A stretch of 48,617 nucleotides of DNA from a virus. The position numbers and the translations under genes were made by a program. Positions within the stretch are counted from its first letter, which is position 1. Each line of letters begins with the position of its first letter. Location of the stretch: UHGV virus genome UHGV-1497260; one strand, given 5' to 3'. Under the pieces are notes generated by a model. That model was not told the DNA's origin. It worked only from the letters and a program-made list of their open reading frames with translations, and did no database searches. Positions 1,489-48,442 of the stretch are shown here, one piece after another.

Positions 1489-1698
1489 AAAGCACACCAC
1501 CTTTTCAAAAGTATAACTAAAATACTATAACAATAGAGTTAACTATACAATACTAAATGTCTAAAAATGTTATTCCAATTTTTACCAATTAATTTTTCTT
1601 TAAAAAAAATTTAAGCAGGAGTAAAAAAAAATAAAAAATTATCAAAATTTATCAATATAAAAAGAAATATAAGTATAAATTTTTCTCTTTGTATATTG

Positions 1699-2255: not shown

Positions 2256-2624
2256 CTATTTGTTTTTCTTTTGCAATAATTCTATCATTTTCAAGATAGC
2301 ATCTCTATCTTCTTGTTCTAATTCATAAAGTTTGTTAGTTATTTCTTTTACATCATCATCAATTTCTAAGTCAGCTAAACAATCTTTATAAATTTCACCT
2401 TTTCCACTTCTTAGCCATTCCTCATTTACTTCAAATTCTCTGCATATGTCGTTAATACTTCTTTCTGTCAAAACTCTTTTTCCTTTTTCCAATAAAGAAA
2501 TTTGATCTTGTGATAAGAAAATTCTTTCCCCAAACGCTCTCTGCGAAAGTCTTTCAAGAGTTCTTAACTCATTTAATCTTTTTCCAATTTCTTTAGCTTT
2601 TAATTCTTTTGAAACTTCTGCCAT
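2256..2624 (-). CDS. XRE-family HTH repressor (CI-like), copy 1
   Basis: HTH segment LSQRAFGERIFLSQDQISLLEKGKR; paralogue of 3258-3632 (ICREFEVNEEWL vs ICREFNVNEQWL); divergent from a small plus-strand gene. Confidence 0.85.
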   Translation of the reverse strand: MAEVSKELKAKEIGKRLNELRTLERLSQRAFGERIFLSQDQISLLEKGKRVLTERSINDICREFEVNEEWLRSGKGEIYKDCLADLEIDDDVKEITNKLYELEQEDRDAILKMIELLQKKNK

Positions 2625-11769: not shown

Positions 11770-12576
11770 ATGAAATTTAAAACTTTTGAAATAACTAAGA
11801 GAGAATTTTTAGTGAGCATAATAATTGCTTGCATGATGATTGTGCTTGGATTTTTCATTGATGATAAAGTTCAATCAAAATTTTTAGAAGATAATGAAAG
11901 ATATTACAAAGCAACTAAAATAAATAATGACAAAGATCTCTTTGATTATGCTATGGAAACAAGTGCGGGAGATTCTTTGATAAGTGGAAGATTTAAAAGT
12001 GTAGATTCTGTATCTATAGAAGAATTAAAAGGGGACTATTGGTTTATAGAAAGAACGGAAGAAAAATACACTATGCATACTAGAGTGGTTACCACTAAAG
12101 ACAGTAAAGGCCATTCACATAAATATACTGAAACATATTGGACTTGGGATTACCATGATTCAATAGAGAAAAAATGTAATAAATTTAATTTCATGGGTAA
12201 AGAGTTTGATGCGAAAGTAATTACTAATTTATCTAAAGAGAGATTGGCATTAAAGAAAGATATATTTAAAAATAATAATCTTAAAATAAAAGGTAATTAT
12301 GCTTACATTAATAATAAGAGAAGGTACTATTATGAAGTTATACCGAAAGAATTTAATGGTACCATGTATGCTAATTTAAAAAATAATACTATAGCGAATC
12401 CAGCTGATAAAAACATAAAAGTTTTTAAGGGTGAGTCTATACAGAATGTTTTAGAAAATAATAATTTTAATACAGGGTTTTTTAAAGTAGTGTTTTGGAT
12501 CATCTGGATATTAATAACTACAATCATTATATATGTATTTTATTATTTAAAAAATGATTGGCTTGAAGATAAATAA
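11770..12576 (+). CDS. membrane protein with N- and C-terminal transmembrane helices (LemA partner)
   Basis: hydrophobic segments near residues 14-30 and 238-260; adjacent to LemA. Confidence 0.45.
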   Translation: MKFKTFEITKREFLVSIIIACMMIVLGFFIDDKVQSKFLEDNERYYKATKINNDKDLFDYAMETSAGDSLISGRFKSVDSVSIEELKGDYWFIERTEEKYTMHTRVVTTKDSKGHSHKYTETYWTWDYHDSIEKKCNKFNFMGKEFDAKVITNLSKERLALKKDIFKNNNLKIKGNYAYINNKRRYYYEVIPKEFNGTMYANLKNNTIANPADKNIKVFKGESIQNVLENNNFNTGFFKVVFWIIWILITTIIIYVFYYLKNDWLEDK

Positions 12577-12600
12577 AGATGTAAGAGGAGAAGATCAGGT

Positions 12601-12861
12601 ATGAAATGTAAGGTGTACCATGCTATTAAAAATATAAAAGATGCAAATGAGTTAATTGATAGATTTGAAACAGAAAATATATTCTTTGAATTAAATGACA
12701 TAGATAATGAAAATGTCTTAAATGGAGAAATGGATTTAACTGATATAGAAGATATTGCATCATTGCAATTTATATTAGATGGAGATTTATTTATATTTAG
12801 TAGTTGTGATGAAATGATATTTATGAATAAATACACTCAAAAAGAGTTGGGACTTCAATAA
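12601..12861 (+). CDS. acidic hypothetical protein
   Basis: ORF only. Confidence 0.35.
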   Translation: MKCKVYHAIKNIKDANELIDRFETENIFFELNDIDNENVLNGEMDLTDIEDIASLQFILDGDLFIFSSCDEMIFMNKYTQKELGLQ

Positions 12862-12884
12862 ATGAATGAGGGGAGATACTAAAG

Positions 12885-13370
12885 ATGGATTTAAAGTTAA
12901 TTAGCAGTATACCTAATTGGAAGGTAGAAGATCAGTTGGCAAAAATTGATGAAGAGGTAACTGAGTTTAAAAATGCTATAGATACAGGAATAACTAAAGA
13001 TATAATTGCAGAAGGATTAGATGTTTGTCAAACTATTTTAACAATGTTTCAAGTTTTAGAAATAGAAAACTATATTACTGAAGGAGTAGAGACACATAAT
13101 AAGAAACTAAATGGAAGAGGATGGGATCTCAAAGAAATAGGAGACGATATACTTAATTTAATTAAAAATTCAATGATTAATGAATTGATTAATATGAACA
13201 AGAAATTAAAATGCCTTGATGAAAAAGAATTTAATGCAAAAATACAATTTTTAGATGTAGATAAACTATGGAATTTGTGCATGCCTTTAGTTAACTTAAG
13301 TACTATAAAAGGAGTTAATGAAAGCATTGATGAAATGAAAATGGGAGAGTTTCTAAAAAATATTAATTAA
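12885..13370 (+). CDS. MazG-like nucleotide pyrophosphohydrolase (putative)
   Basis: segment KIDEEVTEFKNAIDTG...IAEGLDVCQTIL resembles the MazG EExxE...ElgD motifs. Confidence 0.45.
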   Translation: MDLKLISSIPNWKVEDQLAKIDEEVTEFKNAIDTGITKDIIAEGLDVCQTILTMFQVLEIENYITEGVETHNKKLNGRGWDLKEIGDDILNLIKNSMINELINMNKKLKCLDEKEFNAKIQFLDVDKLWNLCMPLVNLSTIKGVNESIDEMKMGEFLKNIN

Positions 13371-14891: not shown

Positions 14892-15536
14892 ATGGAAGCA
14901 CATAGTGGACAAAAAGTTAATCCAATAAAAGATATAGAGGATGTATTTAGACTCTTGAATTTTCTAGAGGAATGGAACGAAAGAAATTACTTATTAGCTC
15001 TATTTGGAATGTGTACTGGGCTTAGGATAGGGGATATATTAGCACTTAAAGTTGCAGATGTAACAGATGTAAAGTTAGATAAAAAAGGGAAGAAGATAAG
15101 AGTATCTAAGGATTGGATTAGAGTTATAGAAGAAAAAAGAGACTATGATAGAGAAGTTTTCTTATCTGATGTAATAAAGAGTGCTATAGAAAACTATACT
15201 CAAGATAAACCAGGAGAAGAGTTTTTATTTAAAAGTGGCAAGAGGAAGAAATTTAATAGGCCTATCCAAACAAGGCAAGCAGGAAGAATAATAAAAGGAG
15301 CAGCAGAAAAGGTAGGAATAAAAGAAAATGTTGCAACACACTCTTTAAGAAAGACATTTGCAAGACATATTTATGATGAAGAAGAAAATAAGACTTATGC
15401 ATTAGAACTTATAAGGAAGATTCTAGGACATAAGACAATAGAAATGACTAGAAGATATATAGGAATAGATAAGGATGAAGAAGTAAAAGCAATAACTAAA
15501 TTTACTAATAAGTTAAAGAAAAGAAAAAGAAATTAA
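14892..15536 (+). CDS. tyrosine site-specific recombinase, catalytic domain only (214 aa)
   Basis: segments LFGMCTGLRIGDILALKVADV, HSLRKTFARHIY and LGHKTIEMTRRYI carry the R..H-x-x-R..Y catalytic signature; no N-terminal core-binding domain. Confidence 0.75.
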   Translation: MEAHSGQKVNPIKDIEDVFRLLNFLEEWNERNYLLALFGMCTGLRIGDILALKVADVTDVKLDKKGKKIRVSKDWIRVIEEKRDYDREVFLSDVIKSAIENYTQDKPGEEFLFKSGKRKKFNRPIQTRQAGRIIKGAAEKVGIKENVATHSLRKTFARHIYDEEENKTYALELIRKILGHKTIEMTRRYIGIDKDEEVKAITKFTNKLKKRKRN

Positions 15537-26648: not shown

Positions 26649-29600
26649 ATGAGTGATGGTACAAGAGTTTTACAAGCAATTATAAGAATGAGAGATGAAG
26701 CTAGTGCAACTTTAAGAAGAGTTGCGGCAAATACAAGATCTCTGCATGACTCAACTTCTAACGCCTCTAAGGCTTTAAATAATGTCCAAAACAATTTAAA
26801 AAATGTTGGTTCTACCGCTTTAAAAACAGGTAGTGCTATAGCTGCTGTGTCTGGTGGGATACTCGCTTTAAGTGCAAAATCTGCAATAGAATTCGAAAGT
26901 GCTTTTGCAGGAGTTAAAAAGACTGTAAATGCAAGTGATGCAGATATTAATACGTTTAAGAAAAATATCATGGATTTATCTAAAAATATGCCACAAACGG
27001 CAGTTGAGATTAGTGCTGTCGGAGAAGCAGCAGGACAATTAGGTATTAAAGTCGGCAAAAATGCATCTAATATTACAAATTTTACAAAAACAATGGTTAT
27101 GCTTGGAGATGCAACAAACATGTCGTCTGATGAAGCAGCTACAGCATTAGCTAGATTTGCAAACATTGTTCAAATGCCACAAAAAAACTTTGATAGACTT
27201 GGAGCAACGATAGTTCAACTTGGAAATAACCTAGCAACTACAGAAAGCGAAATTGTTGAAATGGCTCTTAGACTTGCTGGTTCTGGAAAACAAGTTGGGA
27301 TGTCTGAGGCGCAAATAATGTCTTTCGCTGGTGCATTAAGTTCAGTTGGTATAAAAGCAGAGGCAGGAGGTTCTGCTTTTTCTAAGGTTATGCAACAAAT
27401 GCAATTATCATGCGAAATGGGAGGAAGTAAATTAAATAACTTTGCAAAAGTTGCTGGCATGAGTGCATCAAAATTTAAAGAGTCGTTTCAAAAAGATGCT
27501 GCTGGAGCAATTATATCATTTGTCAAAGGACTTGGAGATGCAAAAAAACATGGAAATAGTGCTATAAAAATGTTAAATAAGATGGGAATAACTGAAATAG
27601 GCATGACTGATGCATTGCTTAGAGCAAGTGGAGCAGGTGATCTATTTAACAACGCTATTCAACTTGGAAATGACGCTTGGAAAGAGAATGTAGCACTAAC
27701 AAATGAAGCAAATCAAAGATATTCAACGACAGAATCGCAGCTTAAGATGATGAAAAATCAGATTACTCAAGTAGCAATAATTATAGGGAATAATTTATTA
27801 CCTTTTATAAGAAGTGCAGTCCAAGTTGTATCTAATATGGCTAATGCTTTCTCTAACTTGCCTCCAGCCTTCCAATCAACTGTAACAGGTATATTGTTAG
27901 CTGTTACAACATTTGGCTTGTTGTTGGCTACTGTAGGGATTGTAAGTCTTGTTATTTCTAAAGCAGCAGGCTTATTCGCTTTCTTTATACCTATAATATT
28001 AAGAACAAAAGTTGCATTTAGAGCCTTTGTAATTGGAATGAAACCATTAAGTGCAGTATTTTTAGCTGTAATGGGTCCTATGGGTTGGACTATAGCAGCT
28101 GTAATAGCATTATCAGTAGCCTTTACTGTTGCTTATGCTAAATCTGAAGTATTTAGAAATAAAGTTAATTCATTAGTAAAATCATTTACAGAATTCGCAA
28201 AGCCTATAGTAAATTTTTGTATGCCTGCACTTAAACAATTAGGAGAGAAATTTAAAGAGTTGTTATCAGCATTTGGTCCACTATTTGCATCTATCTTAAA
28301 CTTAGGAAGTGTAATAATGAAGGTACTAGGACCTGTTTTAATTGGTGTAATAGGTTTTCATATAGCAAAATTAGTTGTAGTTTTATCTACTCTAGCAACT
28401 GCATTCAAAGCTGTAGTTGATACTATAACTAATGTATTAAATGGCCTTGCATCTATTTTAAATGGAATATTTGATTTAATTATAGGCATTGTCACAGGCG
28501 ATAGTAAAAAGATGATGGATGGAGTTAAACAAATATTTGATGGTGGAACTAAAATTATAAAATCAATTTGGAAAGGTTTCATAGATTTTGTAACTGCTCC
28601 TATACAAGCTATAGCCGATATAGCTGACAGCTTATTTAAAGATAAAGCTAAATGGCTTACAGATAAGTGGAGAGATTTAAGAACATTCTTAGAAAATCCA
28701 ATTGAAGCAACTGCCAAAATATCTACTAAAACAAATGCAAATATCCCAGGAAGTAAAGCAGCAGATGCAGCTGGTAAATCTACACCAAATACAGGTGGAT
28801 TAAAACAAACAGTAGCAAATCTAAAAGGTTCATTTAGTGATTTTAAAACTTTTATTAAGCCTATGACAGACTCTATAAGTCAAGGAGTTGAATCTGGAAA
28901 AACTAAATTTACAGAACTGCAAAACAAAATATTAAATGATGTTAAACCTGCATTAAAGGTCTTAGAGGATTCTGGAGTAAATTTTAAAGATAAGTTTAAG
29001 GAGTCAATAACTTCAATAAAGGATAAATTTAATGAATTAAAGAACATATTAGCTGGAAATATTAAAACAAATATAGATAATTTAGTAAAAGCATTTGAAC
29101 CTTTAAAACCTCATTTAGATAATTTGAAAGATTGCTTTGATAAGGTTAAAAAAGCAATTACTGACTTTTTTACTCCAGCCAAACAGGTTGGAGATACAGT
29201 AAATAAAGTAAGTCAGCCAATGGATAGTGTTAAAAAGTCTACTGATGGAATTAAACTTTCTTTCCAAAGTTTAATTCAAGCACTTGCTCCTGTTAAAGCT
29301 TGGTTTCAAGGATTTATGCCTTTCCTATCACAAATAGGACAACAACTTTTACCATCTATAGGAATTGCAATAGCTGGTGTTGTTGGCGGAATAATTTTAG
29401 CATTTACATGGGTTTTAAATACATTAACCGCAATAATAACAACTGTTTCTGGAATCATAAATGGAATTATGTCTTTTATATCTGGAATTATTAATGTTAT
29501 TATGGGGCTTATAACAGGAAATGCTGATCAAACTATGGATGGACTTAAACAAATATTTGATAGTGGAGTAGGTGTAATAAAATCAATTTGGAATGGCCTT

Positions 29601-30041
29601 GTTGATCTAGTTAGTGGCGTACTAGAACCTGTAATAGATCTTGCTGATTCTCTTTTCAAAGATAAAGTTAAAGGGGTAAAAGAAGCTTGGAATAAACTTA
29701 AAGAATTTTTTCATAATCCAATCAAAGGAATGATCGAGATAGTAAAAAGTGGTCCTAGTTTACAAATAGGAAAAGGTGCGGATGCTGCTGGCAAAAGTCC
29801 AAGAAAAGCATTTGGTATAAATAGAGTTCCTAGAAATGATTATTTAATAAGAGCACACGAAGGCGAGAAACTTTTAACCAAACAAGAAGCTAATCAATAC
29901 AAAAGGAATAGTTCAAATGGAAGTTTATTTCTTGATAAATTGGCTGATACAATAATTGTAAGAGAAGAGGCTGACATAGATAAAATTGTAAGAAAAATAA
30001 ACAAAAAAATATCTCTTGCAAAAGTTGGAGGCGTTTTGTAA
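26649..30041 (+). CDS. tail tape measure protein with an internal ~170-aa duplication
   Basis: 1130 aa; predicted helical and transmembrane segments; repeated modules DSKKMMDGVKQIFDGGTKIIKSIWKG...ADSLFKDKAKW and NADQTMDGLKQIFDSGVGVIKSIWNG...ADSLFKDKVKG. Confidence 0.85.
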   Translation: MSDGTRVLQAIIRMRDEASATLRRVAANTRSLHDSTSNASKALNNVQNNLKNVGSTALKTGSAIAAVSGGILALSAKSAIEFESAFAGVKKTVNASDADINTFKKNIMDLSKNMPQTAVEISAVGEAAGQLGIKVGKNASNITNFTKTMVMLGDATNMSSDEAATALARFANIVQMPQKNFDRLGATIVQLGNNLATTESEIVEMALRLAGSGKQVGMSEAQIMSFAGALSSVGIKAEAGGSAFSKVMQQMQLSCEMGGSKLNNFAKVAGMSASKFKESFQKDAAGAIISFVKGLGDAKKHGNSAIKMLNKMGITEIGMTDALLRASGAGDLFNNAIQLGNDAWKENVALTNEANQRYSTTESQLKMMKNQITQVAIIIGNNLLPFIRSAVQVVSNMANAFSNLPPAFQSTVTGILLAVTTFGLLLATVGIVSLVISKAAGLFAFFIPIILRTKVAFRAFVIGMKPLSAVFLAVMGPMGWTIAAVIALSVAFTVAYAKSEVFRNKVNSLVKSFTEFAKPIVNFCMPALKQLGEKFKELLSAFGPLFASILNLGSVIMKVLGPVLIGVIGFHIAKLVVVLSTLATAFKAVVDTITNVLNGLASILNGIFDLIIGIVTGDSKKMMDGVKQIFDGGTKIIKSIWKGFIDFVTAPIQAIADIADSLFKDKAKWLTDKWRDLRTFLENPIEATAKISTKTNANIPGSKAADAAGKSTPNTGGLKQTVANLKGSFSDFKTFIKPMTDSISQGVESGKTKFTELQNKILNDVKPALKVLEDSGVNFKDKFKESITSIKDKFNELKNILAGNIKTNIDNLVKAFEPLKPHLDNLKDCFDKVKKAITDFFTPAKQVGDTVNKVSQPMDSVKKSTDGIKLSFQSLIQALAPVKAWFQGFMPFLSQIGQQLLPSIGIAIAGVVGGIILAFTWVLNTLTAIITTVSGIINGIMSFISGIINVIMGLITGNADQTMDGLKQIFDSGVGVIKSIWNGLVDLVSGVLEPVIDLADSLFKDKVKGVKEAWNKLKEFFHNPIKGMIEIVKSGPSLQIGKGADAAGKSPRKAFGINRVPRNDYLIRAHEGEKLLTKQEANQYKRNSSNGSLFLDKLADTIIVREEADIDKIVRKINKKISLAKVGGVL

Positions 30042-30087
30042 ATTATCGTGCTATAATTGTAGTATATAATTTACAGGGGGTTATGTT

Positions 30088-30564
30088 ATGAATAAAAAAA
30101 TACCAGCATTAGCAATATTAATTGTATTATCTTTAAGTTTAGTTGGATGCAGCACAAATGATTCAAAAAATGGAGATAGTAAACCTAAGCAAAATACAGA
30201 GGAAATTAAAAATCATAAAATAGGCGAAGTTGTTGATTTGGACGGAGCAAAGGTATCTGTTAAAAATGTTAGAAAACTAGAATCAGATAGTAATGTATAT
30301 GCAGTTGAGATTGAAATCACCAATACAGGAGATACAGATCTTGAAAGTGATTTCCTTCAAAACTACATACTAAAAACGGATGATAATACAGTTGGAAATG
30401 CAATAAATAATCAAGAATTAAATGGAGAATTACTATTTGACACAATACATCCAGGAGATACATTAAAAGGTGAGATAGCATTTGAACTTACAAAAGATAC
30501 AAAGCCAAAAACAATTGAAATTGCTTATGAAAATGTAGGAAAATATACAGTATTTGATTTATAA
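30088..30564 (+). CDS. lipoprotein (signal peptide + LVGC lipobox), DUF4352-like beta-sandwich; moron inside the tail operon
   Basis: MNKKIPALAILIVLSLSLVGCS; own extended -10 (TGCTATAAT at 30049-30057) and its own terminator. Confidence 0.7.
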   Translation: MNKKIPALAILIVLSLSLVGCSTNDSKNGDSKPKQNTEEIKNHKIGEVVDLDGAKVSVKNVRKLESDSNVYAVEIEITNTGDTDLESDFLQNYILKTDDNTVGNAINNQELNGELLFDTIHPGDTLKGEIAFELTKDTKPKTIEIAYENVGKYTVFDL

Positions 30565-30576
30565 TAATTATCTTAA

Positions 30577-30609
30577 AAGACACTTATTGAAATAAGTGTC
30601 TTTTATTTT
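30577..30609 (+). terminator. intrinsic terminator AAGACACTTATT-ga-AATAAGTGTCTT followed by TTTTATTTT
   Basis: perfect 12-bp stem and T-run. Confidence 0.8.
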
Positions 30610-30621
30610 AGGAGGAGTTTA

Positions 30622-31257
30622 ATGGAAATATGGTTAAGACAAGCAAATAATACATTTAGGTTTCCTGTTATTCCACCCTCTTTTGAGATAAATGGAAGTG
30701 CAACAATAAATACATCTAATATTTTAAGTGTTGGAGATATTGCAGTATTTGGAGGGTTAGGGCTTAAAACTATAGAACTATCCTCTTTTTTCCCTAATCA
30801 AGAATATAGTTTCTGTAATTATAATGGATTTCCAAAACCATATGATTGTGTAAATTTAATAGAAAGTTGGATGAAAGAAGGATATATATTAAGATTTATC
30901 ATTACAGAAACTAATATAAACTTTGAATGTATAATTGCAGATTTTAATTATAGAGAACAAGATTATTCAAGAGATGTTTATTTTACCTTAAGTCTAAAAG
31001 AATATAGGAGGATACAAATATCCAAAGTAAACATTAACAATGATGAAAAATTATCTTCTGAAAAGGATGTTCAACTAACAAAAGGATTTGATACTAAGCA
31101 AAAAACGCATAAGGTTGTTGAAGGAGATACTCTTTTTAAGATAGCTAAAAAATATTATGGCAATGGAGATTTATGGGAGAAGATTTATAAAGCAAATGAA
31201 GATGAAATTAAAGATCCATCTGTAATAAAAAATGGTTGGGTATTAATAATTCCTTAA
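30622..31257 (+). CDS. LysM-domain tail protein (XkdP-like)
   Basis: C-terminal LysM segment HKVVEGDTLFKIAKKYYGNGDLWEKIYKAN. Confidence 0.7.
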   Translation: MEIWLRQANNTFRFPVIPPSFEINGSATINTSNILSVGDIAVFGGLGLKTIELSSFFPNQEYSFCNYNGFPKPYDCVNLIESWMKEGYILRFIITETNINFECIIADFNYREQDYSRDVYFTLSLKEYRRIQISKVNINNDEKLSSEKDVQLTKGFDTKQKTHKVVEGDTLFKIAKKYYGNGDLWEKIYKANEDEIKDPSVIKNGWVLIIP

Positions 31258-31337: not shown

Positions 31338-33014
31338 GTGGATAAATGCACTTGGTCTGGTGATTATAGATCACCATCAAGAACTTTAGAATTTTCTATA
31401 ATTCAATCTGCAAGTGATATTAATTTTAGGCAGATAGATATTCCAGTAGCAAGCACAGTTTGTTTTTATGTAGATGATAAAGAACTTTTTAGAGGAATGA
31501 TAATAGATAGATCTAAAGACTCTAACAATAATAATATAGATTTTACAGCTAAAGATATGGGTTTTTTACTTTTACAAAGCGAAGTGTCATACAATTTTAA
31601 AGATAAATTGGTTGAAGATATTGCAAAACAAGTATTTTTAGAAAATAAACTCCCACTAGGTAATTTACCTAAGACTGGAGTTAAATATACAAAAATGTTT
31701 ATTGGCGTAACTGGTTATGATACTATAATGAGTGTTTATACAGAAGCAAGCAAAACAACTAAAAAAAAGTATATGATAGAGTCTAATCTTGATAAATTTA
31801 ATGTTATTGAGAAGGGTGTAGTTACTTTAAATATAACATTTGAAGAAGGCTTTAATCTTATCAATACAAATTTTTCTGAAAGCATGGAGAATGTAAAAAA
31901 TAAAGTACTGGTTGTTGATCAGTATGGTAATAAGATTAGTGAGAAAATAAATGACTCTATATTTAAAGACGTTGGAGTAATTATGCAAAAGGTAATACAA
32001 CAACAAGAAAACAGTACTATAGACATAGATGGAGAGTTTAAAGGAATCGAAAAAACTTGCTCTCTAAAAGGATATGGTGATATAACTTGTGTAACTGGTA
32101 GAGGTGTAAAAGTAAAAGACTCATATACAAAATTAATTGGTCTTTTTTATATAGATACAGATAAGCATACATGGCAAAATGGAGATTATCAAATTGAACT
32201 AGAGCTTAATTTTGAGAATATAATGGATGAAAAATCTGCTGGTCAAGATGAACAAAAAGAAGATGGTTCAGAGTATACTGGAGGAACAGAATACTCTGCT
32301 GAATTTACTGCTTATTGTCCTAGAAAATCTGAAGGTGGAGATAAAGATTGTAGAGGTAAAAAACTAGATCCTTCTAAAAAAACATGTGCTGCTCCCATGG
32401 TTGGATCATATGAGAAATCTTACTATACAAAAGATTTCTTAAACAAACATCCTCTTATGAGATATGGAGATGAAATACAATTAGTTACAGGTGTTTCAAG
32501 TCGAGATGGAACGTATAAAGTAAATGATAATGGACCTGCAATAATTATAGAAAAGGATGGAACATATCATATAGATATTTTATTTGGAAATGTTGAAGAA
32601 GCTAACAACTTTGGAAGAAGAAAAGGAAAGATTATAATTGGTGGTTATTCTGGAAACATGACAGAAAAAGCAAAAACAGTAATTTCAGAAGCAAGAAAAC
32701 ATCTTGGAAAGCCATACAAATGGGGCGGGAATGGACCAAGTAGCTTTGATTGTTCTGGACTAATGGTATATTGCTTTAAGAAGGTTAATGTTAATTTACC
32801 AAGAACCTCAAGTCAGCAATCTAAGGTAGGTAAGAAAGTAGAGAAAAATAATTTACAGGCAGGAGATTTGGTATTTTTCCATAATCCAGTCAGCCATGTT
32901 GGACTATACGTAGGTAATGGAGAATTTTTACATGCGCCACAAACAGGAGATGTAGTTAAAATAAGTAAATTAAGTAATAGAAAAGATTTTAATACAGCTA
33001 GAAGAGTTTTGTAA
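31338..33014 (+). CDS. tail-associated cell-wall hydrolase (XkdQ-like N-terminus, C-terminal NlpC/P60 endopeptidase)
   Basis: C-terminal GKPYKWGGNGPSSFDCSGLMVY...HVGLYVG carries the Cys/His catalytic signature; a central Cys-containing region FTAYCP...C...C is of unclear type. Confidence 0.7.
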   Translation: MDKCTWSGDYRSPSRTLEFSIIQSASDINFRQIDIPVASTVCFYVDDKELFRGMIIDRSKDSNNNNIDFTAKDMGFLLLQSEVSYNFKDKLVEDIAKQVFLENKLPLGNLPKTGVKYTKMFIGVTGYDTIMSVYTEASKTTKKKYMIESNLDKFNVIEKGVVTLNITFEEGFNLINTNFSESMENVKNKVLVVDQYGNKISEKINDSIFKDVGVIMQKVIQQQENSTIDIDGEFKGIEKTCSLKGYGDITCVTGRGVKVKDSYTKLIGLFYIDTDKHTWQNGDYQIELELNFENIMDEKSAGQDEQKEDGSEYTGGTEYSAEFTAYCPRKSEGGDKDCRGKKLDPSKKTCAAPMVGSYEKSYYTKDFLNKHPLMRYGDEIQLVTGVSSRDGTYKVNDNGPAIIIEKDGTYHIDILFGNVEEANNFGRRKGKIIIGGYSGNMTEKAKTVISEARKHLGKPYKWGGNGPSSFDCSGLMVYCFKKVNVNLPRTSSQQSKVGKKVEKNNLQAGDLVFFHNPVSHVGLYVGNGEFLHAPQTGDVVKISKLSNRKDFNTARRVL

Positions 33015-42843: not shown

Positions 42844-43749
42844 TTATTTCATCATTTTTTTGTATCCTTTTGCATTTGCAAAAACATGTTTATCTACATC
42901 ACTCATAACTATTATGCCAGGTATATTCTTTTTAAATGCTTCACCTAACAATTTAGCACCTCCACCCATAACAACAACCGCAGCTGTACTAACTGGATAA
43001 TTTAATTTCAATTCATTGTATATTTCTTTAAATAGAGAAATAGATGCATCTATATTTTTCTTTATATCTTGTTTTTCACCATTTAGGTAAAATCCTTTAT
43101 TTATGTAGTCTTGTATTTTTTCTCTTTTTATCTCAACTTTACCTAAAAATCTTTCGTCCATCTCAAGAGATTTCTTTATTGCATCATATATATTTATTGT
43201 TCCCACATTTATAGAATATGGATTAGTTGCTTTATTTCCTTGTACAAGTGCAATATCTGTTGTCTTTCCACCAATATCAACTAAAACAACATCTCTTCCT
43301 GCAACTTGGTCAACTATATCTTTTGCATAATATAAATAGCCTGTAACGCCCTCTGGGAACACTTGAACAGATCTTATTACTATATCTCTTTTAGTAGTTT
43401 CATTTCCTTTTGCAAATTCAACATGATATTCTTTTCCTTGTAATTTTTCAATCAAATCTTTTCTTAATCCTCCAAATTGCTTCACTGGTAGACCTAATGC
43501 TAGATCAATAACTTCATCATCTGTATTTCTGCATATAGCCCCAAGTAAAAGCGGTAAGAAGTTTTCTTTCTCATATTTAACTATATTTATTTCTTCGTCA
43601 CCTTCGCCTAAATAATATGTTTTATTACCTATTTTAATGCTATCTGAATCTGAACCAAAGTTTTTTACCTCTGTAACTTTACTTTCAAAAATATCATCTG
43701 TACTTGTTTTAACTGCATAATTTCCAATATCTATACCTAATTTACTCAT
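42844..43749 (-). CDS. parM: ParM/Alp-family actin-like segregation ATPase
   Basis: N-terminal MSKLGIDIGNYAVK phosphate-1 motif; actin-fold motifs DIGGKTTD and VVMGGGA; paired with a small upstream gene. Confidence 0.75.
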   Translation of the reverse strand: MSKLGIDIGNYAVKTSTDDIFESKVTEVKNFGSDSDSIKIGNKTYYLGEGDEEINIVKYEKENFLPLLLGAICRNTDDEVIDLALGLPVKQFGGLRKDLIEKLQGKEYHVEFAKGNETTKRDIVIRSVQVFPEGVTGYLYYAKDIVDQVAGRDVVLVDIGGKTTDIALVQGNKATNPYSINVGTINIYDAIKKSLEMDERFLGKVEIKREKIQDYINKGFYLNGEKQDIKKNIDASISLFKEIYNELKLNYPVSTAAVVVMGGGAKLLGEAFKKNIPGIIVMSDVDKHVFANAKGYKKMMK

Positions 43750-43972: not shown

Positions 43973-44059
43973 TCAACCACTTCCTTTTTTGTAAAATATT
44001 ATAAAATTTATTAATATTTACATATATTTTACCAAATTTTATACAGTAATTCAATAGAT

Positions 44060-44150
44060 TTATAAGATATTATTTATAAAATTTTATAATTTTTTACGTA
44101 ATTTTATAATATTTTATAAATTTTATCATTTTGTATATAATTAAAAACAC
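44060..44150. repeat. parC-like centromere: multiple ATTTTATAA repeats including the palindrome TTATAAAATTTTATAA
   Basis: sequence reading; upstream of parR. Confidence 0.55.
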
Positions 44151-44167
44151 ACTTTTTATAATTTTGC

Positions 44168-44207
44168 ATAAAAAAAGAGTGTTTCATATATTTCTAAACA
44201 CTCTTTT
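44168..44207. terminator. bidirectional terminator AGAGTGTTT-loop-AAACACTCT flanked by A-run and T-run
   Basis: sequence reading; lies after the 44221-44679 minus-strand gene. Confidence 0.6.
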
Positions 44208-44220
44208 CTACTTTTTATAA

Positions 44221-44679
44221 TTATCTAATTGTAAAAGAAGCTTCAGCTGGACTAGAGAATAATATAATACCTCCTGTACAAACACCTTTTCCTTTAAATT
44301 TAGCAATATATGAACCCTTTTTTAGCCCTTTGAAACTTACTACACCAGTTTTAGTAGTTCCAGCTAATCTAAAACTTACAAATTGAGATGATACAATTTT
44401 GCCAGCCTTATATACATCTATATTTCCTTCAAATCCTAAAATATTTCCAAGCGTAGATGTTACTCTCCAAGATAACTGCCCACCACTCATTGCAGTTAAA
44501 TTAGCAGTACCACCTGGAACAACAACAGATTTAGTCGAAGGCGAATCTGAGTTTGGTTGGCCAATTAATTCAACTGTTTGTGAATTTCCAGTACCTTCAT
44601 AATCATTTCCATCAGCAAAAGCTGTAAATGGAATCATTACTGCACAAAGCGTTAGTAATAAAGCAATTGTTTTTTTCAT
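44221..44679 (-). CDS. secreted protein (signal peptide MKKTIALLLTLCAVMIPFTAFA), unknown function; cargo
   Basis: canonical Sec signal peptide; Gly/Ser/Thr-rich beta-type mature region. Confidence 0.6.
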   Translation of the reverse strand: MKKTIALLLTLCAVMIPFTAFADGNDYEGTGNSQTVELIGQPNSDSPSTKSVVVPGGTANLTAMSGGQLSWRVTSTLGNILGFEGNIDVYKAGKIVSSQFVSFRLAGTTKTGVVSFKGLKKGSYIAKFKGKGVCTGGIILFSSPAEASFTIR

Positions 44680-44713
44680 TTGTTTTCCCCCTATTTTTTT
44701 ATATTATTCTCAA

Positions 44714-45052
44714 TTACAGTTTCCTTTCTTTACGTGCCTTAATAATCATATTGTAATTATACTCAGCAGTTTCAAATGCTCCTACCAAAGGAGTTATAAT
44801 TACACTTTCTATTAAGCACAATTCATCATAGTTTAAACTAGCTTCTCCAGCATAGAAATTATTTAACTTATCTAAATCTATTCTAGTTAAAACGGAAACT
44901 GATTCCATTGAGAATTTGTAAACATCAATAAGTTTATATAATCCACCTATATAGTTTTTTGCTACTTCATGGCTCTTAAAAAATTCATCTTTTCCTGTAT
45001 GTAAATTTACTTCCATAATTCCCTCCATTGTTCTTATATTTTCAACCTTCAA
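44714..45052 (-). CDS. hypothetical cytoplasmic protein upstream of the secreted protein gene
   Basis: ORF; start may be the internal MEGIMEV/MEV. Confidence 0.4.
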   Translation of the reverse strand: MKVENIRTMEGIMEVNLHTGKDEFFKSHEVAKNYIGGLYKLIDVYKFSMESVSVLTRIDLDKLNNFYAGEASLNYDELCLIESVIITPLVGAFETAEYNYNMIIKARKERKL

Positions 45053-45072
45053 ATAATATTTACTTCTTCTTC

Positions 45073-45131
45073 AAAACAGAATATTCTATCACGGTAGAAT
45101 ATTCTGTTTTTTTCATTCTATCATGATAGAA
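45073..45131. promoter_or_regulatory. two palindromes in the promoter region: AAAACAGAATATTCTA-6-TAGAATATTCTGTTTT and TTCTATCATGATAGAA
   Basis: sequence reading. Confidence 0.55.
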
Positions 45132-45381
45132 TAATATTTTCAATCATTTTTTAAATTATATTCTATTTAAATAAAATATAATATAAAAAAGAACACTTAA
45201 TATTTTTCAAGCTAATATATTAAGTGTTCTTTTTTATATTTTTACAAAATTATATAAAATTATTCTTTAATCAATTAAAGTGTTTTTCTATTTCTTAATA
45301 ATAAGAAATGATATAAAATTGTATCATTTTAAAGATTTTGTGATATAATAAAAGCAAGAAGAACTACAATCTATTTAGGCG

Positions 45382-45396
45382 TAGAGTGGAGTTCAT
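45382..45396. repeat. left copy of a 15-bp inverted repeat TAGAGTGGAGTTCAT flanking the toxin locus (partner at 45607-45621)
   Basis: perfect 15-mer reverse complement. Confidence 0.8.
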
Positions 45397-45408
45397 AATA
45401 AACATAGT

Positions 45409-45561
45409 TTATTTTTTGAATTTAAATATAAATTTAAATTCAACCTGTAAGTCACTCTTTGCACGAGAGTGGCTTTTTGCTTTTTTGAATAGTTTACTGA
45501 TTAAGTAAACTACCACGCTAGCTGTTAAACTAGCTAAAACATTAAACAAAAAGTTATCCAT
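45409..45561 (-). CDS. type I toxin-like membrane peptide (50 aa: MDNFLFNVLASLTASVVVYLISKLFKKAKSHSRAKSDLQVEFKFIFKFKK)
   Basis: translated by hand from the reverse complement; N-terminal transmembrane helix plus Lys-rich tail; GAGGGGAGGTGA ribosome-binding site sequestered by an upstream CCTCCC hairpin. Confidence 0.6.
   Translation of the reverse strand: MDNFLFNVLASLTASVVVYLISKLFKKAKSHSRAKSDLQVEFKFIFKFKK
45451..45487 (+). terminator. intrinsic terminator on the plus strand inside and antisense to the toxin ORF; candidate 3-prime end of an antitoxin sRNA
   Basis: GTCACTCT-ttgcacg-AGAGTGGC followed by TTTTTGCTTTTTTG. Confidence 0.55.
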
Positions 45562-45680: not shown

Positions 45681-46415
45681 TTAAGAATTTGCATTACAAT
45701 AATCAGAAAGCTTGTCCCACTCACAATCAACCCCTATTATTTTAAGAATATCATTGACTTGGCTATTTAAATCTTTAATATCTGATTTAGACATTAAAGG
45801 ATCTTTCATTATTTCATTTAGAAAAATACTATCAATGATTAAACATACATTTTCTGATATATATTCACGTTTTACTGAGATTGCTGTTCCAACTACACTT
45901 TCTTTTAATGTCTTGTATGCTACACTCATTATACATGGTTCTAACTCAATTCCTTCTAGTGTTATTTCAAAAGAATATCTTATTTTTATATTTTCATTTC
46001 CAATAAATATTTCTTCATTGCTGCTTATCTTCTTTAATTTTCTCATTATGCCTAACATCTTAGCATTCACTTCATAATTTATTCCATATCTCTTTGATGC
46101 CAAACTCGACATTAAGTCTCTTTCTAAATAAATTACCCACTGACCATTATAGGAAAATGATGTTTTAGCGATATCCATTTCTCCTTTTCCAGTAATATTA
46201 AATTTAGGCTCTAGTTTATTTATTAAGTAAATCTCATAAAAATCCATAGTATATTTATTATCTAATTCCATATACTCAAGTCTTAAATTCTTATTACACC
46301 AATTTTCTTTTTTATTACTTAAATGACTAGCGTGTCTATCACAGATATTCTCTGTTTTCCCAACGTATAAACATTCTTCCGTATCTTGATTAATATATTT
46401 ATAAACATAATACAT
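45681..46415 (-). CDS. GIY-YIG nuclease-domain protein, copy 2
   Basis: N-terminal YVYKYI...LYVGKTEN...RH..H...FYEIYLINKLEPKFN carries the GIY, YIG, Arg and Glu motifs; divergent C-terminus. Confidence 0.75.
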   Translation of the reverse strand: MYYVYKYINQDTEECLYVGKTENICDRHASHLSNKKENWCNKNLRLEYMELDNKYTMDFYEIYLINKLEPKFNITGKGEMDIAKTSFSYNGQWVIYLERDLMSSLASKRYGINYEVNAKMLGIMRKLKKISSNEEIFIGNENIKIRYSFEITLEGIELEPCIMSVAYKTLKESVVGTAISVKREYISENVCLIIDSIFLNEIMKDPLMSKSDIKDLNSQVNDILKIIGVDCEWDKLSDYCNANS

Positions 46416-46434
46416 TTTTTATTTTCTCCAATTC

Positions 46435-47235
46435 TTAATTGTCATATTTACAGCCCTTATATATTTCAAATAATTCTTGCCATGTATATCCAACTTCTAG
46501 TATGTGAAAAATATCCTCTATTTGTTGGAAAATCTCAGTAATTTTATATTCAAATGTTGGCATTAATTCCATTAAATTAGCCAAAGATCCAATCCTAATC
46601 TCTAATGTTATATTTATAAGTATTTTTTTATTTGTTGCTGTATATTCTTTCCATCTGGGATAAACTGAAATCAAAGAACAACTTCCAAATCTTTCTAATG
46701 TTTCAAAATCATATGATATCAAATTAATATCTAATTCATTCTCACAAAATTCTATATCCATATTTTCAAAGTTATATAGCACACTTAAAACATTATTTTC
46801 ATATAACATTTCAACCTTGGCATCTAACTTTTCAATTCTCTTTAAAAAATTAATAGATTTTTTACTTACTTCATATTTCATATCTATCTTTCTTTCTCTG
46901 AATCTTCTTTTTCCCTTTGTCTTTTCCTTAAAATCTTCTTCTGAATATGTACTCCAATCTTCTTCCTTGTAATCAAAAAAGATGTGTTCAGTATCCATAT
47001 CACCTTTACTTAGTTTATTAAATATTGGATTTAGTTCATTTATTAAATAAACTTCAAAAAAATCCATATTATATCTACGTGGAAGTTCAATATATTTTAA
47101 TATTAATTCTTTAGTACACCAATCTTCTTCTTTATTACTCAAATGAGATGAATGCCTTGCATATATATCTTCTGTTTTTCCAACGTATAAACATTCTTCT
47201 GTAGCTGGATCAATATATTTATAAACATAATACAT
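46435..47235 (-). CDS. GIY-YIG nuclease-domain protein, copy 1
   Basis: same motifs (YVYKYI, LYVGKTED, FEVYLINELNPIFN); first ~100 nt and the ribosome-binding-site region nearly identical to copy 2. Confidence 0.75.
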   Translation of the reverse strand: MYYVYKYIDPATEECLYVGKTEDIYARHSSHLSNKEEDWCTKELILKYIELPRRYNMDFFEVYLINELNPIFNKLSKGDMDTEHIFFDYKEEDWSTYSEEDFKEKTKGKRRFRERKIDMKYEVSKKSINFLKRIEKLDAKVEMLYENNVLSVLYNFENMDIEFCENELDINLISYDFETLERFGSCSLISVYPRWKEYTATNKKILINITLEIRIGSLANLMELMPTFEYKITEIFQQIEDIFHILEVGYTWQELFEIYKGCKYDN

Positions 47236-47254: not shown

Positions 47255-48442
47255 TTATTTATAGTAATATCCTTCTTCATTTACTATACCTTGATCAAAT
47301 AAATTTCTCCTAACAGTTTCAAGTCTGACAGGATCTTTGCTATAATCAACTTCTCTTTCTTCTTTTTTAACATCTTCATCATCCCAATATTTATCTAATT
47401 CTTCTTTAAACTTTAAATCATCTTTTTGATGAATTATAACTTCACTTATTTTATTTGAAAGTGTTGATTTAAAAAAATCATAATTCTTTGTATTTATAAT
47501 ATCAGTATTATCTCTTTCAAATGCTATAGCAATAGACTTATTAAAAGCATTCAGATAAACATCTTTCTTAAAATCAAACTCTTTAAAATCTTCTTTAAAT
47601 AGTTTAATCGTCCCTGTTGTAAAAATATTTTCATTTGGTATATAAAAACTAAAAGACACTTCATTGTCCTGCTTCTTTTTAGGTATATAATCTTCAACCA
47701 ATATATCTTTATCAAAATATTTTCTAGGTTCATAATCTATCACAGAAAAAATTATTTCATCTATTTTTCTATTTTTTCTTTTTTCTTCTTTTATTGAAAC
47801 AACCATGTTGCCTTTTTTATTTATTTCATTCATTGCTCTTTTTAGAACATTTTGTTTAAAATATTTATACTCTGGATATACATTATCTTTTAATTTCAAA
47901 TAAAATCTTAATTCATCTAACTTATATTTTATCTCCACTTCCTTATTTTCTCTGCTCCATAGTCTAAATAAAGTGTATAACCTCTGAGTATATGCACCTC
48001 TAAAATTAAATAACACTGATAAATTAATAGCTGTATATCCATTTTTCTTTTTCTGCATTTTTACAAAATCAGTTATATGATTGTATAGAACTTCATGCAT
48101 CATAATTGTATAAATTTGGTCTGTATGATCCAATTCATATGTATTAATTAAACCACTTCCAAAAGTTTTTAACTTGCCAGTTGTCTCTTCTATATAGTCA
48201 AATTCCAAAACACTTTGTTGAAACATGTTCAAAATTTCTTTTATATTTTTATGCTCATAATCATTATTGTTTTTCATAAATACTTTTAGTTCTTCTTTTG
48301 ATATAGTTGTAACATAAGATGAATTTTGCTGTTTCTGAGCATTAAAAAGTATTTTGTAAAATAATTTATTTTCCACATTTGTAAAATCATATTTACTTTT
48401 TATTAAATTATTTGGTTGCATTAAAATTTCTTTTTTTTCCAA
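47255..48442 (-). CDS. plasmid replication initiator, Rep_3-like (iteron-binding)
   Basis: N-terminal segment NNLIKSKYDFTNVENKLFYKILFNAQ resembles the Rep_3 family signature; gene abuts the iteron array. Confidence 0.65.
   Translation of the reverse strand: MEKKEILMQPNNLIKSKYDFTNVENKLFYKILFNAQKQQNSSYVTTISKEELKVFMKNNNDYEHKNIKEILNMFQQSVLEFDYIEETTGKLKTFGSGLINTYELDHTDQIYTIMMHEVLYNHITDFVKMQKKKNGYTAINLSVLFNFRGAYTQRLYTLFRLWSRENKEVEIKYKLDELRFYLKLKDNVYPEYKYFKQNVLKRAMNEINKKGNMVVSIKEEKRKNRKIDEIIFSVIDYEPRKYFDKDILVEDYIPKKKQDNEVSFSFYIPNENIFTTGTIKLFKEDFKEFDFKKDVYLNAFNKSIAIAFERDNTDIINTKNYDFFKSTLSNKISEVIIHQKDDLKFKEELDKYWDDEDVKKEEREVDYSKDPVRLETVRRNLFDQGIVNEEGYYYK

What the first reader, a model, noticed from the sequence alone, without database searches (positions are those of the whole stretch)
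30042..30609. Lipoprotein moron with its own extended -10 promoter and a perfect terminator inside the tail operon
A 158-aa lipoprotein (lipobox LVGC, DUF4352-like beta-sandwich) is inserted between the tape-measure and LysM baseplate genes. It is bracketed by TGCTATAAT upstream and a 12-bp-stem terminator downstream, so it can be expressed from the prophage state. Lipoproteins in this position in other phages act in superinfection exclusion.
Basis: partly seen in the sequence, partly recalled or inferred. Interest (0 to 1): 0.55.

Follow-up and report, generated by a model that had tools for sequence, protein, structure and literature searches.

The report
Lipoprotein moron in phage-plasmid tail operon
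A small self-contained gene cassette for a membrane-tethered surface protein sits in the tail genes of a Clostridioides difficile phage-plasmid (pCDBI1 type); it probably shields the carrier cell from other phages, but nobody has tested that.

Summary
ORF 30088-30564 encodes a 158-aa lipoprotein (lipobox LVGC, DUF4352 beta-sandwich). It is 100% identical to WP_003425686.1 of C. difficile plasmid pCDBI1.

It lies in a 571-bp block (30036-30606) that is cleanly absent from phiSemix9P1, where the tape-measure stop abuts the LysM ribosome-binding site.

The 46-nt leader carrying TGCTATAAT differs at 0-1 positions among four alleles compared. Their coding parts differ by 3-15% (13-15% between the three allele types). 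The downstream 14-bp hairpin keeps its structure through two compensatory pair swaps. The gene is under purifying selection (dN/dS 0.07-0.22).

The closest cellular relatives are chromosomal lipoprotein genes of C. sporogenes and C. botulinum. They have a similar promoter and leader and their own terminators, so the unit was probably captured whole.

Relatives sit in other phages at positions typical of prophage-expressed genes. The only characterised DUF4352 protein, mycobacterial Mpr, is a membrane-anchored phage-resistance factor escaped through a tail-protein mutation.

Superinfection exclusion is therefore the best-supported function, but it is inferred, not shown.

New here: a conserved hairpin from the tape-measure stop codon to the Shine-Dalgarno sequence that encloses the -10 box. 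It may gate translation by transcript origin.

Verdict: a textbook moron, a new member of a known kind, of moderate interest.

The parts
26649..30041 (+). Tail tape measure protein gene. Its last codons and stop form the left arm of the leader hairpin.
   Evidence: Pfam PhageMin_Tail 7.6e-18 and phrog_991 3.7e-167.
30036..30606 (+). Inserted block (the moron) relative to phiSemix9P1, L037 and L038.
   Evidence: blastn homology breaks at 30035 and resumes at 30607, with 1 nt between the two points in phiSemix9P1.
30030..30082 (+). Leader stem-loop. It is an RNA hairpin in read-through transcripts, or a DNA inverted repeat TGTAAATTAT (30037-30046) / ATAATTTACA (30066-30075). It encloses the -10 box and reaches the Shine-Dalgarno sequence.
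   Evidence: dG -19.6 kcal/mol, z -6.3, 0 of 200 shuffles fold as well. The same hairpin is in L004, L012, L052 and L054. It is absent in chromosomal homologues and in L019. The core is invariant in 8 loci.
30049..30057 (+). Extended -10 promoter element TGcTATAAT. The predicted transcription start is about 30063-30066.
   Evidence: Read directly from the sequence. Invariant in all cassette-bearing loci. The leader has 0-1 differences in 46 nt, against 13-15% between allele types in the mature coding part.
30075..30080 (+). Shine-Dalgarno sequence AGGGGG, 7 nt before the ATG.
   Evidence: Read directly from the sequence. The same G-rich Shine-Dalgarno sequence is found in the chromosomal and L019 homologues.
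30088..30150 (+). Signal peptide and lipobox (residues 1-21, with Cys21 as the lipidated residue).
   Evidence: Translation. G20 and C21 are invariant in 23 homologues.
30151..30213 (+). Low-complexity tether (residues 22-42).
   Evidence: pLDDT is below 50 for residues 10-36.
30214..30564 (+). DUF4352 beta-sandwich domain (residues 43-158) and stop codon.
   Evidence: Pfam match. AlphaFold strands 48-157 with block-mean pLDDT 89-98. Foldseek matches to 3cfu, 4r4g, 1lmi and 5bxg.
30574..30609 (+). Intrinsic-terminator-like hairpin: 14-bp stem, UGAA loop and a UUUUAUUUU tail that is partly inside the stem.
   Evidence: dG -15.3 kcal/mol, z -3.6 to -4.4. The L012 variant keeps the stem through A-U to G-C and C-G to U-A swaps.
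30610..31257 (+). Ribosome-binding site AGGAGG and the XkdP-like LysM/Dit-like baseplate gene. This is the first late gene downstream of the cassette.
   Evidence: Pfam LysM 2.6e-10 and phrog_380.

Best explanation
This is a classical moron: a promoter-gene-terminator unit lodged in the late tail operon of a pCDBI1/phiSemix9P1-type C. difficile phage-plasmid.

Shown by sequence and comparison:
- The unit is extra DNA between two genes that are adjacent in relatives.
- It carries a conserved extended -10 and leader, and a hairpin kept by compensatory change.
- It encodes a lipoprotein whose DUF4352 beta-sandwich hangs on a roughly 20-residue tether from the outer face of the cytoplasmic membrane.
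- It evolves under purifying selection.
- It descends from a family of clostridial chromosomal lipoprotein genes that have a similar promoter and leader and their own terminators.

Inferred:
- The cassette is transcribed from its own sigma-A promoter while the late operon is silent.
- The lipoprotein then acts at the membrane-wall interface on incoming phage tails (tape measure or tail tip) and blocks DNA entry. That would be superinfection exclusion in the manner of HK97 gp15, Ltp or Mpr.
- The leader hairpin may restrict or couple translation of the gene on read-through late transcripts. Transcripts from the cassette's own promoter lack the left arm and have a free Shine-Dalgarno sequence.

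Confidence by layer: about 0.85 that it is an autonomous, functional moron encoding a surface lipoprotein; about 0.45 that the function is phage exclusion.
For: Anatomy:
- Clean 571-bp insertion relative to phiSemix9P1, L037 and L038.
- Lipobox invariant in 23 homologues.
- DUF4352 by Pfam and by fold.

Regulatory signals:
- The leader has 0-1 differences in 46 nt. The mature coding part differs by 3-15% (13-15% between allele types) and the flanks by up to 14-16%.
- Hairpin variants all fold at about -15 kcal/mol, with two compensatory swaps.

Selection and history:
- dN/dS is 0.07-0.22.
- Cassette dS is 0.50 against 0.008 for the adjacent LysM gene (window vs L004). Old alleles are therefore being shuffled among near-identical backbones.

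Origin:
- The C. sporogenes and C. botulinum chromosomal homologues (52-56% identity) are in non-phage context. They have a TTGAAA-16-TATAAT promoter, a similar G-rich leader and their own terminators.

Recruitment by other phages (7 of 9 contexts examined are phage-borne):
- Between the tape-measure and LysM genes again in a divergent prophage at 55% identity.
- On the opposite strand between the lysis cassette and the early genes.
- Co-oriented with a CI-like repressor.
- Within an early-gene region.
- Outside this subfamily: Paenibacillus phage Eltigre gp27 is a DUF4352 lipoprotein co-oriented with integrase and CI.
- Outside this subfamily: phiC2p18 is a TM-anchored DUF4352 protein just upstream of the phiC2 tape-measure gene.

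Functional precedents:
- Mpr has a TM anchor and a predicted extracytoplasmic DUF4352. The domain is required in vivo for D29 resistance, and escape mutants map to minor tail protein gp32 (PMC9262609 and PMC12596739).
- The HK97 gp15 moron sits next to the tape-measure gene and blocks DNA entry (PMC3594210).
Against: - There are no expression or phenotype data for this gene or any close relative.
- PADLOC finds nothing, and tblastn against deposited phages finds nothing.
- The promoter motif is not rarer than chance in this AT-rich window, and there is no -35.
- The consensus terminator scan did not flag the hairpin. Only 4 U follow the full stem.
- The hairpin also occurs without the gene in HGP05, L031, L032, L035 and L036. 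It may therefore predate the cassette or serve the late operon.
- G+C content of the block does not differ from its flanks.
- The closest cellular homologues are conserved chromosomal genes, so the ancestral role is not anti-phage.
- Selection is purifying, with no sign of an arms race.
- Presence of the cassette does not track the tape-measure C-terminal allele.
Confidence: 0.5

Rival explanations
1. Lysogenic-conversion factor unrelated to phages. The lipoprotein keeps the envelope role of its chromosomal ancestors (binding a wall component, modulating a wall enzyme, adhesion or nutrient capture) and raises carrier fitness in the gut or in soil.
For: - The closest cellular homologues are conserved chromosomal genes, next to another lipoprotein (DUF3862/BLIP) and, in C. 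sporogenes, a transglutaminase-like protein.
- Structural neighbours are housekeeping Bacillus lipoproteins YjhA, YcdA and YxkC. YxkC is modelled in complex with the penicillin-binding protein DacA in PDB entry 9a4z.
- Purifying selection without elevated dN.
- Moron-encoded envelope proteins such as lambda Bor and Lom do this kind of job (PMC3594210); that Bor is a lipoprotein is from my own knowledge.
Against: - No function is known for any of these cellular proteins.
- This reading does not explain repeated placement next to tape-measure genes and repressors in unrelated phages.
- It does not explain the Mpr precedent.
Confidence: 0.3
2. Lytic-cycle function. The gene is mainly expressed by read-through from the tape-measure gene late in infection. 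The lipoprotein would stop progeny or secondary phages from injecting into the dying cell or its debris (as T5 Llp does), or would help tail or lysis functions.
For: - The gene is co-oriented inside the late operon, 46 nt after the tape-measure stop.
- The leader hairpin spans the stop codon and the Shine-Dalgarno sequence. A terminating ribosome could open it, which is classic translational coupling.
- The junction next to the tape-measure gene is used in three lineages.
Against: - The conserved independent promoter would be unnecessary.
- Relatives in other phages sit in lysogeny-type positions on the opposite strand from late genes.
- Close relatives lack the gene altogether. One of them, phiSemix9P1, is a described phage maintained extrachromosomally in lysogens (PMC6127314).
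- An exported lipoprotein cannot be a tail component.
Confidence: 0.12
3. Decaying hitch-hiker. The ORF, promoter motif and hairpin are a neutral remnant with no current function.
For: - The cassette is lost in several close relatives.
- The motif is not statistically unusual.
Against: - dN/dS is 0.07-0.22 at dS 0.4-0.6.
- The reading frame and lipobox are intact in every copy.
- The leader is almost invariant, and the hairpin shows compensatory changes.
Confidence: 0.03

Closest known systems
HK97 gp15 moron (E. coli phage HK97)
   Same: A promoter-gene-terminator unit inside the tail operon, directly next to the tape-measure gene. It encodes a membrane-located protein, is expressed from the prophage, and blocks DNA entry in a way that depends on the incoming phage's tail (PMC3594210).
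   Different: No sequence or fold relation. gp15 is a small inner-membrane protein, not a lipoprotein. It lies upstream rather than downstream of the tape-measure gene, and its host is Gram-negative. Function here is untested.
Ltp of Streptococcus thermophilus phage TP-J34 (Ltp-type exclusion lipoproteins)
   Same: A prophage-encoded, surface-exposed lipoprotein of a Gram-positive host involved in superinfection exclusion (PMC3952083, abstract).
   Different: According to my own knowledge, Ltp lies in the lysogeny module and has helical repeat domains. The protein here is a beta-sandwich with no Pfam or structural match to Ltp.
Mpr (MSMEG_1236) of Mycobacterium smegmatis, and DUF4352 proteins of temperate mycobacteriophages
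   Same: The same Pfam domain, anchored to the membrane with DUF4352 predicted outside. The domain is needed for phage resistance in vivo, and escape is through a minor tail protein (PMC9262609, PMC12596739).
   Different: Mpr is anchored by a TM helix and has an N-terminal segment reported as an exonuclease, which is absent here. Resistance needs overexpression. The nucleotide hydrolysis reported for the domain would be hard to reconcile with an extracellular location.
B. subtilis lipoprotein YjhA (PDB 3cfu) and the clostridial chromosomal DUF4352 lipoproteins (P0008, P0010)
   Same: The same fold and the same architecture: lipobox, tether and single DUF4352. The clostridial proteins are 52-56% identical and have a similar promoter and leader.
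   Different: These are chromosomal, non-phage genes of unknown function.
Lambda Bor and Lom; Cor of phi80/N15/HK022; T5 Llp
   Same: Prophage or phage envelope proteins from accessory genes. Cor inactivates the receptor FhuA (PMC3594210). That Lom and Cor lie among the tail genes, and that Llp acts on the same receptor, is from my own knowledge.
   Different: These are outer-membrane proteins of Gram-negative hosts with unrelated folds. Bor and Lom act on the animal host, not on phages.

Membership tests
Moron (sense of Juhala et al. 2000, as summarised in PMC3594210) | Extra DNA between two genes that are adjacent in related phages | tested here: met
   571 bp (30036-30606) are absent in phiSemix9P1, L037 and L038, where the tape-measure stop abuts the LysM ribosome-binding site.
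Moron (sense of Juhala et al. 2000, as summarised in PMC3594210) | Own promoter | tested here: inconclusive
   TGcTATAAT is invariant, and the leader is the most conserved stretch of the region. However, the motif is not rarer than chance, there is no -35, and no transcript data exist.
Moron (sense of Juhala et al. 2000, as summarised in PMC3594210) | Own terminator | tested here: inconclusive
   A stable hairpin with a U-rich tail and compensatory changes. But only 4 U follow the full stem, the scan missed it, and the hairpin also occurs without the gene.
Moron (sense of Juhala et al. 2000, as summarised in PMC3594210) | Base composition different from the surrounding genes | tested here: not met
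   G+C is 28-30% in the cassette, against about 31% in the tape-measure 3' part and 25-28% in LysM. The likely donors are equally AT-rich clostridia, so this feature is uninformative here.
Moron (sense of Juhala et al. 2000, as summarised in PMC3594210) | Expression from the repressed prophage | not testable with these tools
   Needs RNA-seq or 5' end mapping in a carrier strain.
Bacterial lipoprotein (Lgt/Lsp substrate) | Basic n-region, hydrophobic core, and lipobox [LVI][ASTVI][GAS]C within the first 15-35 residues | tested here: met
   MNKK-IPALAILIVLSLS-LVGC with Cys21. G20 and C21 are invariant in 23 homologues. Lipidation itself was not tested.
Pfam DUF4352 (PF11611) | Score above the gathering threshold, and the immunoglobulin-like beta-sandwich fold of YjhA/MPT63 | tested here: met
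   48.1 bits against a cutoff of 25.9. The profile hits 3cfu at 2.7e-6. Foldseek top hits are 3cfu, 4r4g, 1lmi and 5bxg.
Ltp-type superinfection exclusion lipoproteins | Homology to Ltp (helical repeat domains) | tested here: not met
   No Pfam, PHROG or structural match other than to DUF4352/DUF5067 proteins. The model is all-beta.
Mpr-type phage resistance protein | N-terminal charged segment with a TM helix (the reported exonuclease) followed by DUF4352 | tested here: not met
   The protein here has a cleavable lipoprotein signal peptide and no N-terminal cytoplasmic segment. Only the DUF4352 part is shared (PMC9262609).
Known anti-phage defence systems (PADLOC-DB 2.0) | Match to any defence-protein model | tested here: not met
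   0 families at E up to 1.

The most novel reading that the evidence does not exclude
Membrane-tethered DUF4352 beta-sandwich proteins, whether lipoprotein or TM-anchored, may form a widespread and unrecognised class of phage-encoded entry blockers in Firmicutes and Actinobacteria. They would act on the tape measure or tail tip of incoming phages. That would explain why they recur next to tape-measure genes and repressors. In this cassette, a hairpin that encloses its own promoter would make translation depend on which promoter produced the mRNA.
Probability: 0.25. Interest if true: 0.65.

Novelty: new member of a known kind. Interest (0 to 1): 0.42.

Why it matters
The cassette sits on pCDBI1-type phage-plasmids. 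These occur in clinical C. difficile strains, including BI1 and the type strain ATCC 9689.

If the lipoprotein excludes phages, three things follow.
- It would be the first prophage-encoded exclusion protein described for C. difficile that I could find in the searched literature.
- It would affect the choice of hosts and phages for phage therapy.
- It would give a function to a very large DUF family in Gram-positive bacteria, linking it to the single mycobacterial precedent.

If it does not, the locus is still a clean example of a host gene captured whole, with its signals, into a phage late operon.

Tried and rejected
- tblastn of the protein against 50,697 deposited phage records found nothing. 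The cassette is instead on records filed as plasmids.
- PADLOC gave no hit. NCBIfam gave only signal-peptide noise. Rfam found no known RNA in 29500-31200.
- I tested whether the 36-nt spacer of the hairpin-only relatives is a remnant of the gene's 3' end. The best local alignment was reached by 10-28% of shuffles. Whether that state is precursor or deletion product therefore stays open.
- TGNTATAAT frequency was tested and is not significant.
- The arm sequence TGTAAATTAT was searched elsewhere in the window as a possible shared operator and is not enriched.
- G+C deviation of the cassette: none.
- I followed PDB 5bxg (CD630_09570) as a possible positional analogue. Papers place the neighbouring CD0956 genes among toxin-antitoxin and CRISPR loci of phiCD630-1, and phiC2p18 does not match any PDB sequence. 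I dropped this lead.
- A literature search for YxkC with DacA returned nothing.
- A link between cassette presence and the tape-measure C-terminal allele was not found.

Full report
**What is there**

The window is a PBSX-type contractile-tail phage. The gene order is sheath 24526, tube 25597, XkdN-like chaperone 26053, tape measure 26649-30041, XkdP-like LysM protein 30622-31257, XkdQ-like NlpC/P60 protein 31338-33014, then baseplate genes.

It also encodes a Rep3 initiator, a ParM-like actin and only a small tyrosine recombinase. Its nearest deposited relatives are phiSemix9P1 and HGP05. The cassette region is 98% identical to C. difficile plasmids of 42-48 kb, including pCDBI1 and the plasmid of the type strain ATCC 9689. 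phiSemix9P1 is reported to be maintained extrachromosomally (PMC6127314). The element is therefore best called a phage-plasmid.

Between the tape-measure and LysM genes lies ORF 30088-30564, 158 aa. It is 100% identical to pCDBI1 WP_003425686.1, which is annotated only as a DUF4352 domain-containing protein.

**The protein**

- It starts MNKKIPALAILIVLSLSLVGC, a textbook lipoprotein signal with Cys21. Gly20 and Cys21 are invariant in all 23 homologues found.
- A low-complexity tether of about 20 residues follows.
- Residues 43-158 match Pfam DUF4352 (E 1.8e-12) and DUF5067, and match phrog_806 over its full length (function unknown).
- The AlphaFold model has a confident all-beta core. Its best structural matches are B. 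subtilis lipoproteins YjhA, YxkC and YcdA, M. tuberculosis MPT63, and a C. difficile beta-sandwich protein. In the viral library it matches DUF4352 proteins and lipoproteins of Rhodococcus, Paenibacillus and Mycobacterium phages.
- PADLOC has no match.

**Is it an insertion?**

Yes. Homology to phiSemix9P1 stops at 30035 and resumes at 30607, with one base between these points in phiSemix9P1. There the tape-measure stop overlaps the LysM ribosome-binding site.

Across 25 related loci the junction has three states.
- A: the bare junction (phiSemix9P1, L037, L038).
- B: a 36-nt spacer plus the hairpin only (HGP05, L031, L032, L035, L036).
- C: leader, gene and hairpin (the window, L004-7, L012-13, L028-30, L033-34).

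I could not decide whether B is the precursor of C or a deletion remnant, because the spacer's similarity to the gene's 3' end is not significant. Either way the cassette is dispensable for the phage. A hairpin at this place in the late operon is tolerated.

**Are the signals real?**

The motif TGCTATAAT (30049-30057) is not rare in this AT-rich DNA: 12 found against 7.5 expected. The consensus scans flagged neither the promoter nor the terminator. The comparative evidence is stronger.

| Segment (four alleles compared) | Differences |
|---|---|
| 46-nt leader | 0-1 of 46 positions |
| Mature coding part | 3-15% (13-15% between allele types) |
| Tape-measure 3' end | 2-14% |
| LysM 5' end | 0-16% |
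| Hairpin region | 4-33% |

Eight loci share an invariant core from 30035 to the ATG, apart from one substitution and one inserted base.

The hairpin has a 14-bp stem, dG -15.3 kcal/mol, z about -4. In L012 and L013 it exists in a second sequence version of equal stability that differs by two fully compensatory pair swaps and one wobble.

**Selection and history**

dN/dS of the gene is 0.07-0.22 at dS 0.4-0.6. Between the window and L004 the cassette has dS 0.50 while the adjacent LysM gene has dS 0.008. Old alleles are therefore exchanged among nearly identical backbones, and the gene is kept functional.

**Origin**

The subfamily is small: 22 proteins in 5.8 billion at E<=0.001. It fades quickly into general DUF4352.

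Its cellular members are chromosomal genes of C. sporogenes and C. botulinum in non-phage context. They have a canonical TTGAAA-16-TATAAT promoter, a similar G-rich Shine-Dalgarno leader and their own terminators. The unit was therefore probably captured whole from a bacterial chromosome.

**Where relatives sit in other phages**

- At 55% identity, again between the tape-measure and LysM genes of a divergent prophage.
- At 46-48% identity, on the opposite strand between the lysis cassette and the early genes.
- At 49% identity, co-oriented with and close to a CI-like repressor.
- Within an early-gene region.

Beyond the subfamily:
- Paenibacillus phage Eltigre gp27 is a DUF4352 lipoprotein co-oriented with integrase and CI.
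- phiC2p18 (also in phiMMP01, phiMMP03 and phiCDKH02) is a TM-anchored DUF4352 protein in a cargo block just upstream of the tape-measure gene.
- phiCD119 carries a different accessory gene, a SHOCT-domain protein, at the same junction, so this junction is a cargo site.

**Function**

Nothing is known experimentally for this gene.

The only characterised DUF4352 protein is Mpr of M. smegmatis.
- It is membrane-anchored, with the domain predicted outside.
- The domain is required in vivo for resistance to phage D29.
- Escape phages carry a change in minor tail protein gp32.
- Temperate mycobacteriophages encode related proteins (PMC9262609, PMC12596739).

The first moron ever named, HK97 gene 15, sits next to the tape-measure gene. 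It encodes a membrane protein that blocks DNA entry in a tail-dependent way (PMC3594210).

Taken with the lysogeny-type positions of relatives, the most likely role is superinfection exclusion at the membrane-wall interface. I put this at about 0.45.

The main rival, at about 0.3, is an envelope or fitness function inherited from the chromosomal ancestors. This is supported by the housekeeping nature of the structural neighbours and by plain purifying selection. A late-cycle role is possible (about 0.12). A neutral remnant is contradicted by the selection data.

**An unexpected feature**

Positions 30030-30082 fold into a long interrupted hairpin: dG -19.6 kcal/mol, z -6.3, and 0 of 200 shuffles fold as well.
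- Its left arm is the last tape-measure codons plus the stop.
- Its apex holds the -10 box.
- Its right arm runs into the Shine-Dalgarno sequence.
- At DNA level it is a perfect 10-nt inverted repeat, 19 nt apart.

The hairpin is present in every cassette variant folded, at -15.8 to -21.1 kcal/mol. This includes one variant where two G.U pairs become G-C through synonymous changes in the tape-measure gene. It is absent from the chromosomal homologues and from the other phage contexts.

A transcript started at the cassette's own promoter would lack the left arm and leave the Shine-Dalgarno sequence open (dG -2.6 kcal/mol). A read-through late transcript would carry the hairpin. This could silence the gene on late mRNA, couple it to tape-measure translation, or be an operator. 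None of these was tested.

**Verdict**

The exclusion function is a reasonable inference, not a result. This is a new member of a known kind. Interest is moderate, raised somewhat by three points:
- the link between DUF4352 and phage resistance;
- the recurrence of such genes beside tape-measure genes;
- the promoter-enclosing hairpin.

Noticed in passing
window 30030-30082: A strong conserved stem-loop (dG -19.6 kcal/mol, z -6.3) runs from the tape-measure stop codon to the Shine-Dalgarno sequence of the lipoprotein gene, with the -10 box at its apex. At DNA level it is a perfect 10-nt inverted repeat (30037-30046 / 30066-30075). It could gate translation by transcript origin, couple translation to the tape-measure gene, or be an operator.
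   Followed up: partly
window 42844-43749 (-), 47255-48442 (-), 14892-15536 (+): A ParM/ALP-like actin, a Rep3-type replication initiator and only a small tyrosine recombinase. The element looks like a phage-plasmid of the pCDBI1/pDLL3026/phiSemix9P1 kind rather than an integrated prophage.
   Followed up: partly
L003 3025-3111 (HGP05); also L031, L032, L035, L036: Close relatives keep a 36-nt spacer and the terminator-like hairpin between the tape-measure and LysM genes, but have no lipoprotein gene or promoter. Whether this is the precursor or a deletion remnant could not be decided.
   Followed up: yes
L021 2810-4332 (phiC2 11809-13331): phiC2, phiMMP01, phiMMP03 and phiCDKH02 carry a TM-anchored DUF4352 protein (phiC2p18). 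In phiC2 it lies in a three-gene cargo block between the tail chaperone and the tape measure, beside a zinc-ribbon protein (p19). This is an independent second case of a membrane-tethered DUF4352 protein next to a tape-measure gene.
   Followed up: partly
L002 1439-2059 (phiCD119 ORF18): phiCD119 has a SHOCT-domain protein and about 900 nt of unannotated DNA at the same tape-measure/XkdP junction. The junction is a recurrent cargo site.
   Followed up: partly
L048 4771-5988: In one metagenomic phage the lipoprotein homologue lies beside a metallo-beta-lactamase-fold gene with a weak Anti-Pycsar Apyc1 match, close to the CI-like repressor.
   Followed up: no
L019 817-5163: In the divergent prophage with the 55%-identical homologue, the tape-measure region is called as several ORFs with an HNH-domain ORF between them. 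This could be an intervening homing-type element or an assembly problem.
   Followed up: no
window 1105-1500 (-), 2256-2624 (-): The element encodes both a BlaI/MecI-type (Penicillinase_R) repressor and a CI-like HTH protein. No BlaR-type sensor gene is evident next to the first.
   Followed up: no
window 44000-45450: A dense cluster of perfect inverted repeats (for example 45073-45110 and 45186-45234) lies between the ParM-like and Rep3 genes. It could be the origin or partition site, or a set of terminators.
   Followed up: no
window 45681-47235 (-): Two tandem ORFs, each with an N-terminal GIY-YIG nuclease domain, lie directly downstream of the Rep3 gene.
   Followed up: no
window 30088-30564 compared with L004, L012 and L033: Three cassette alleles differing by 13-15% in DNA occur in backbones whose LysM genes are 98-99.5% identical as proteins. 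One allele (97% identical protein) sits in a backbone only 81-84% identical. The cassette is exchanged independently of its flanks.
   Followed up: yes
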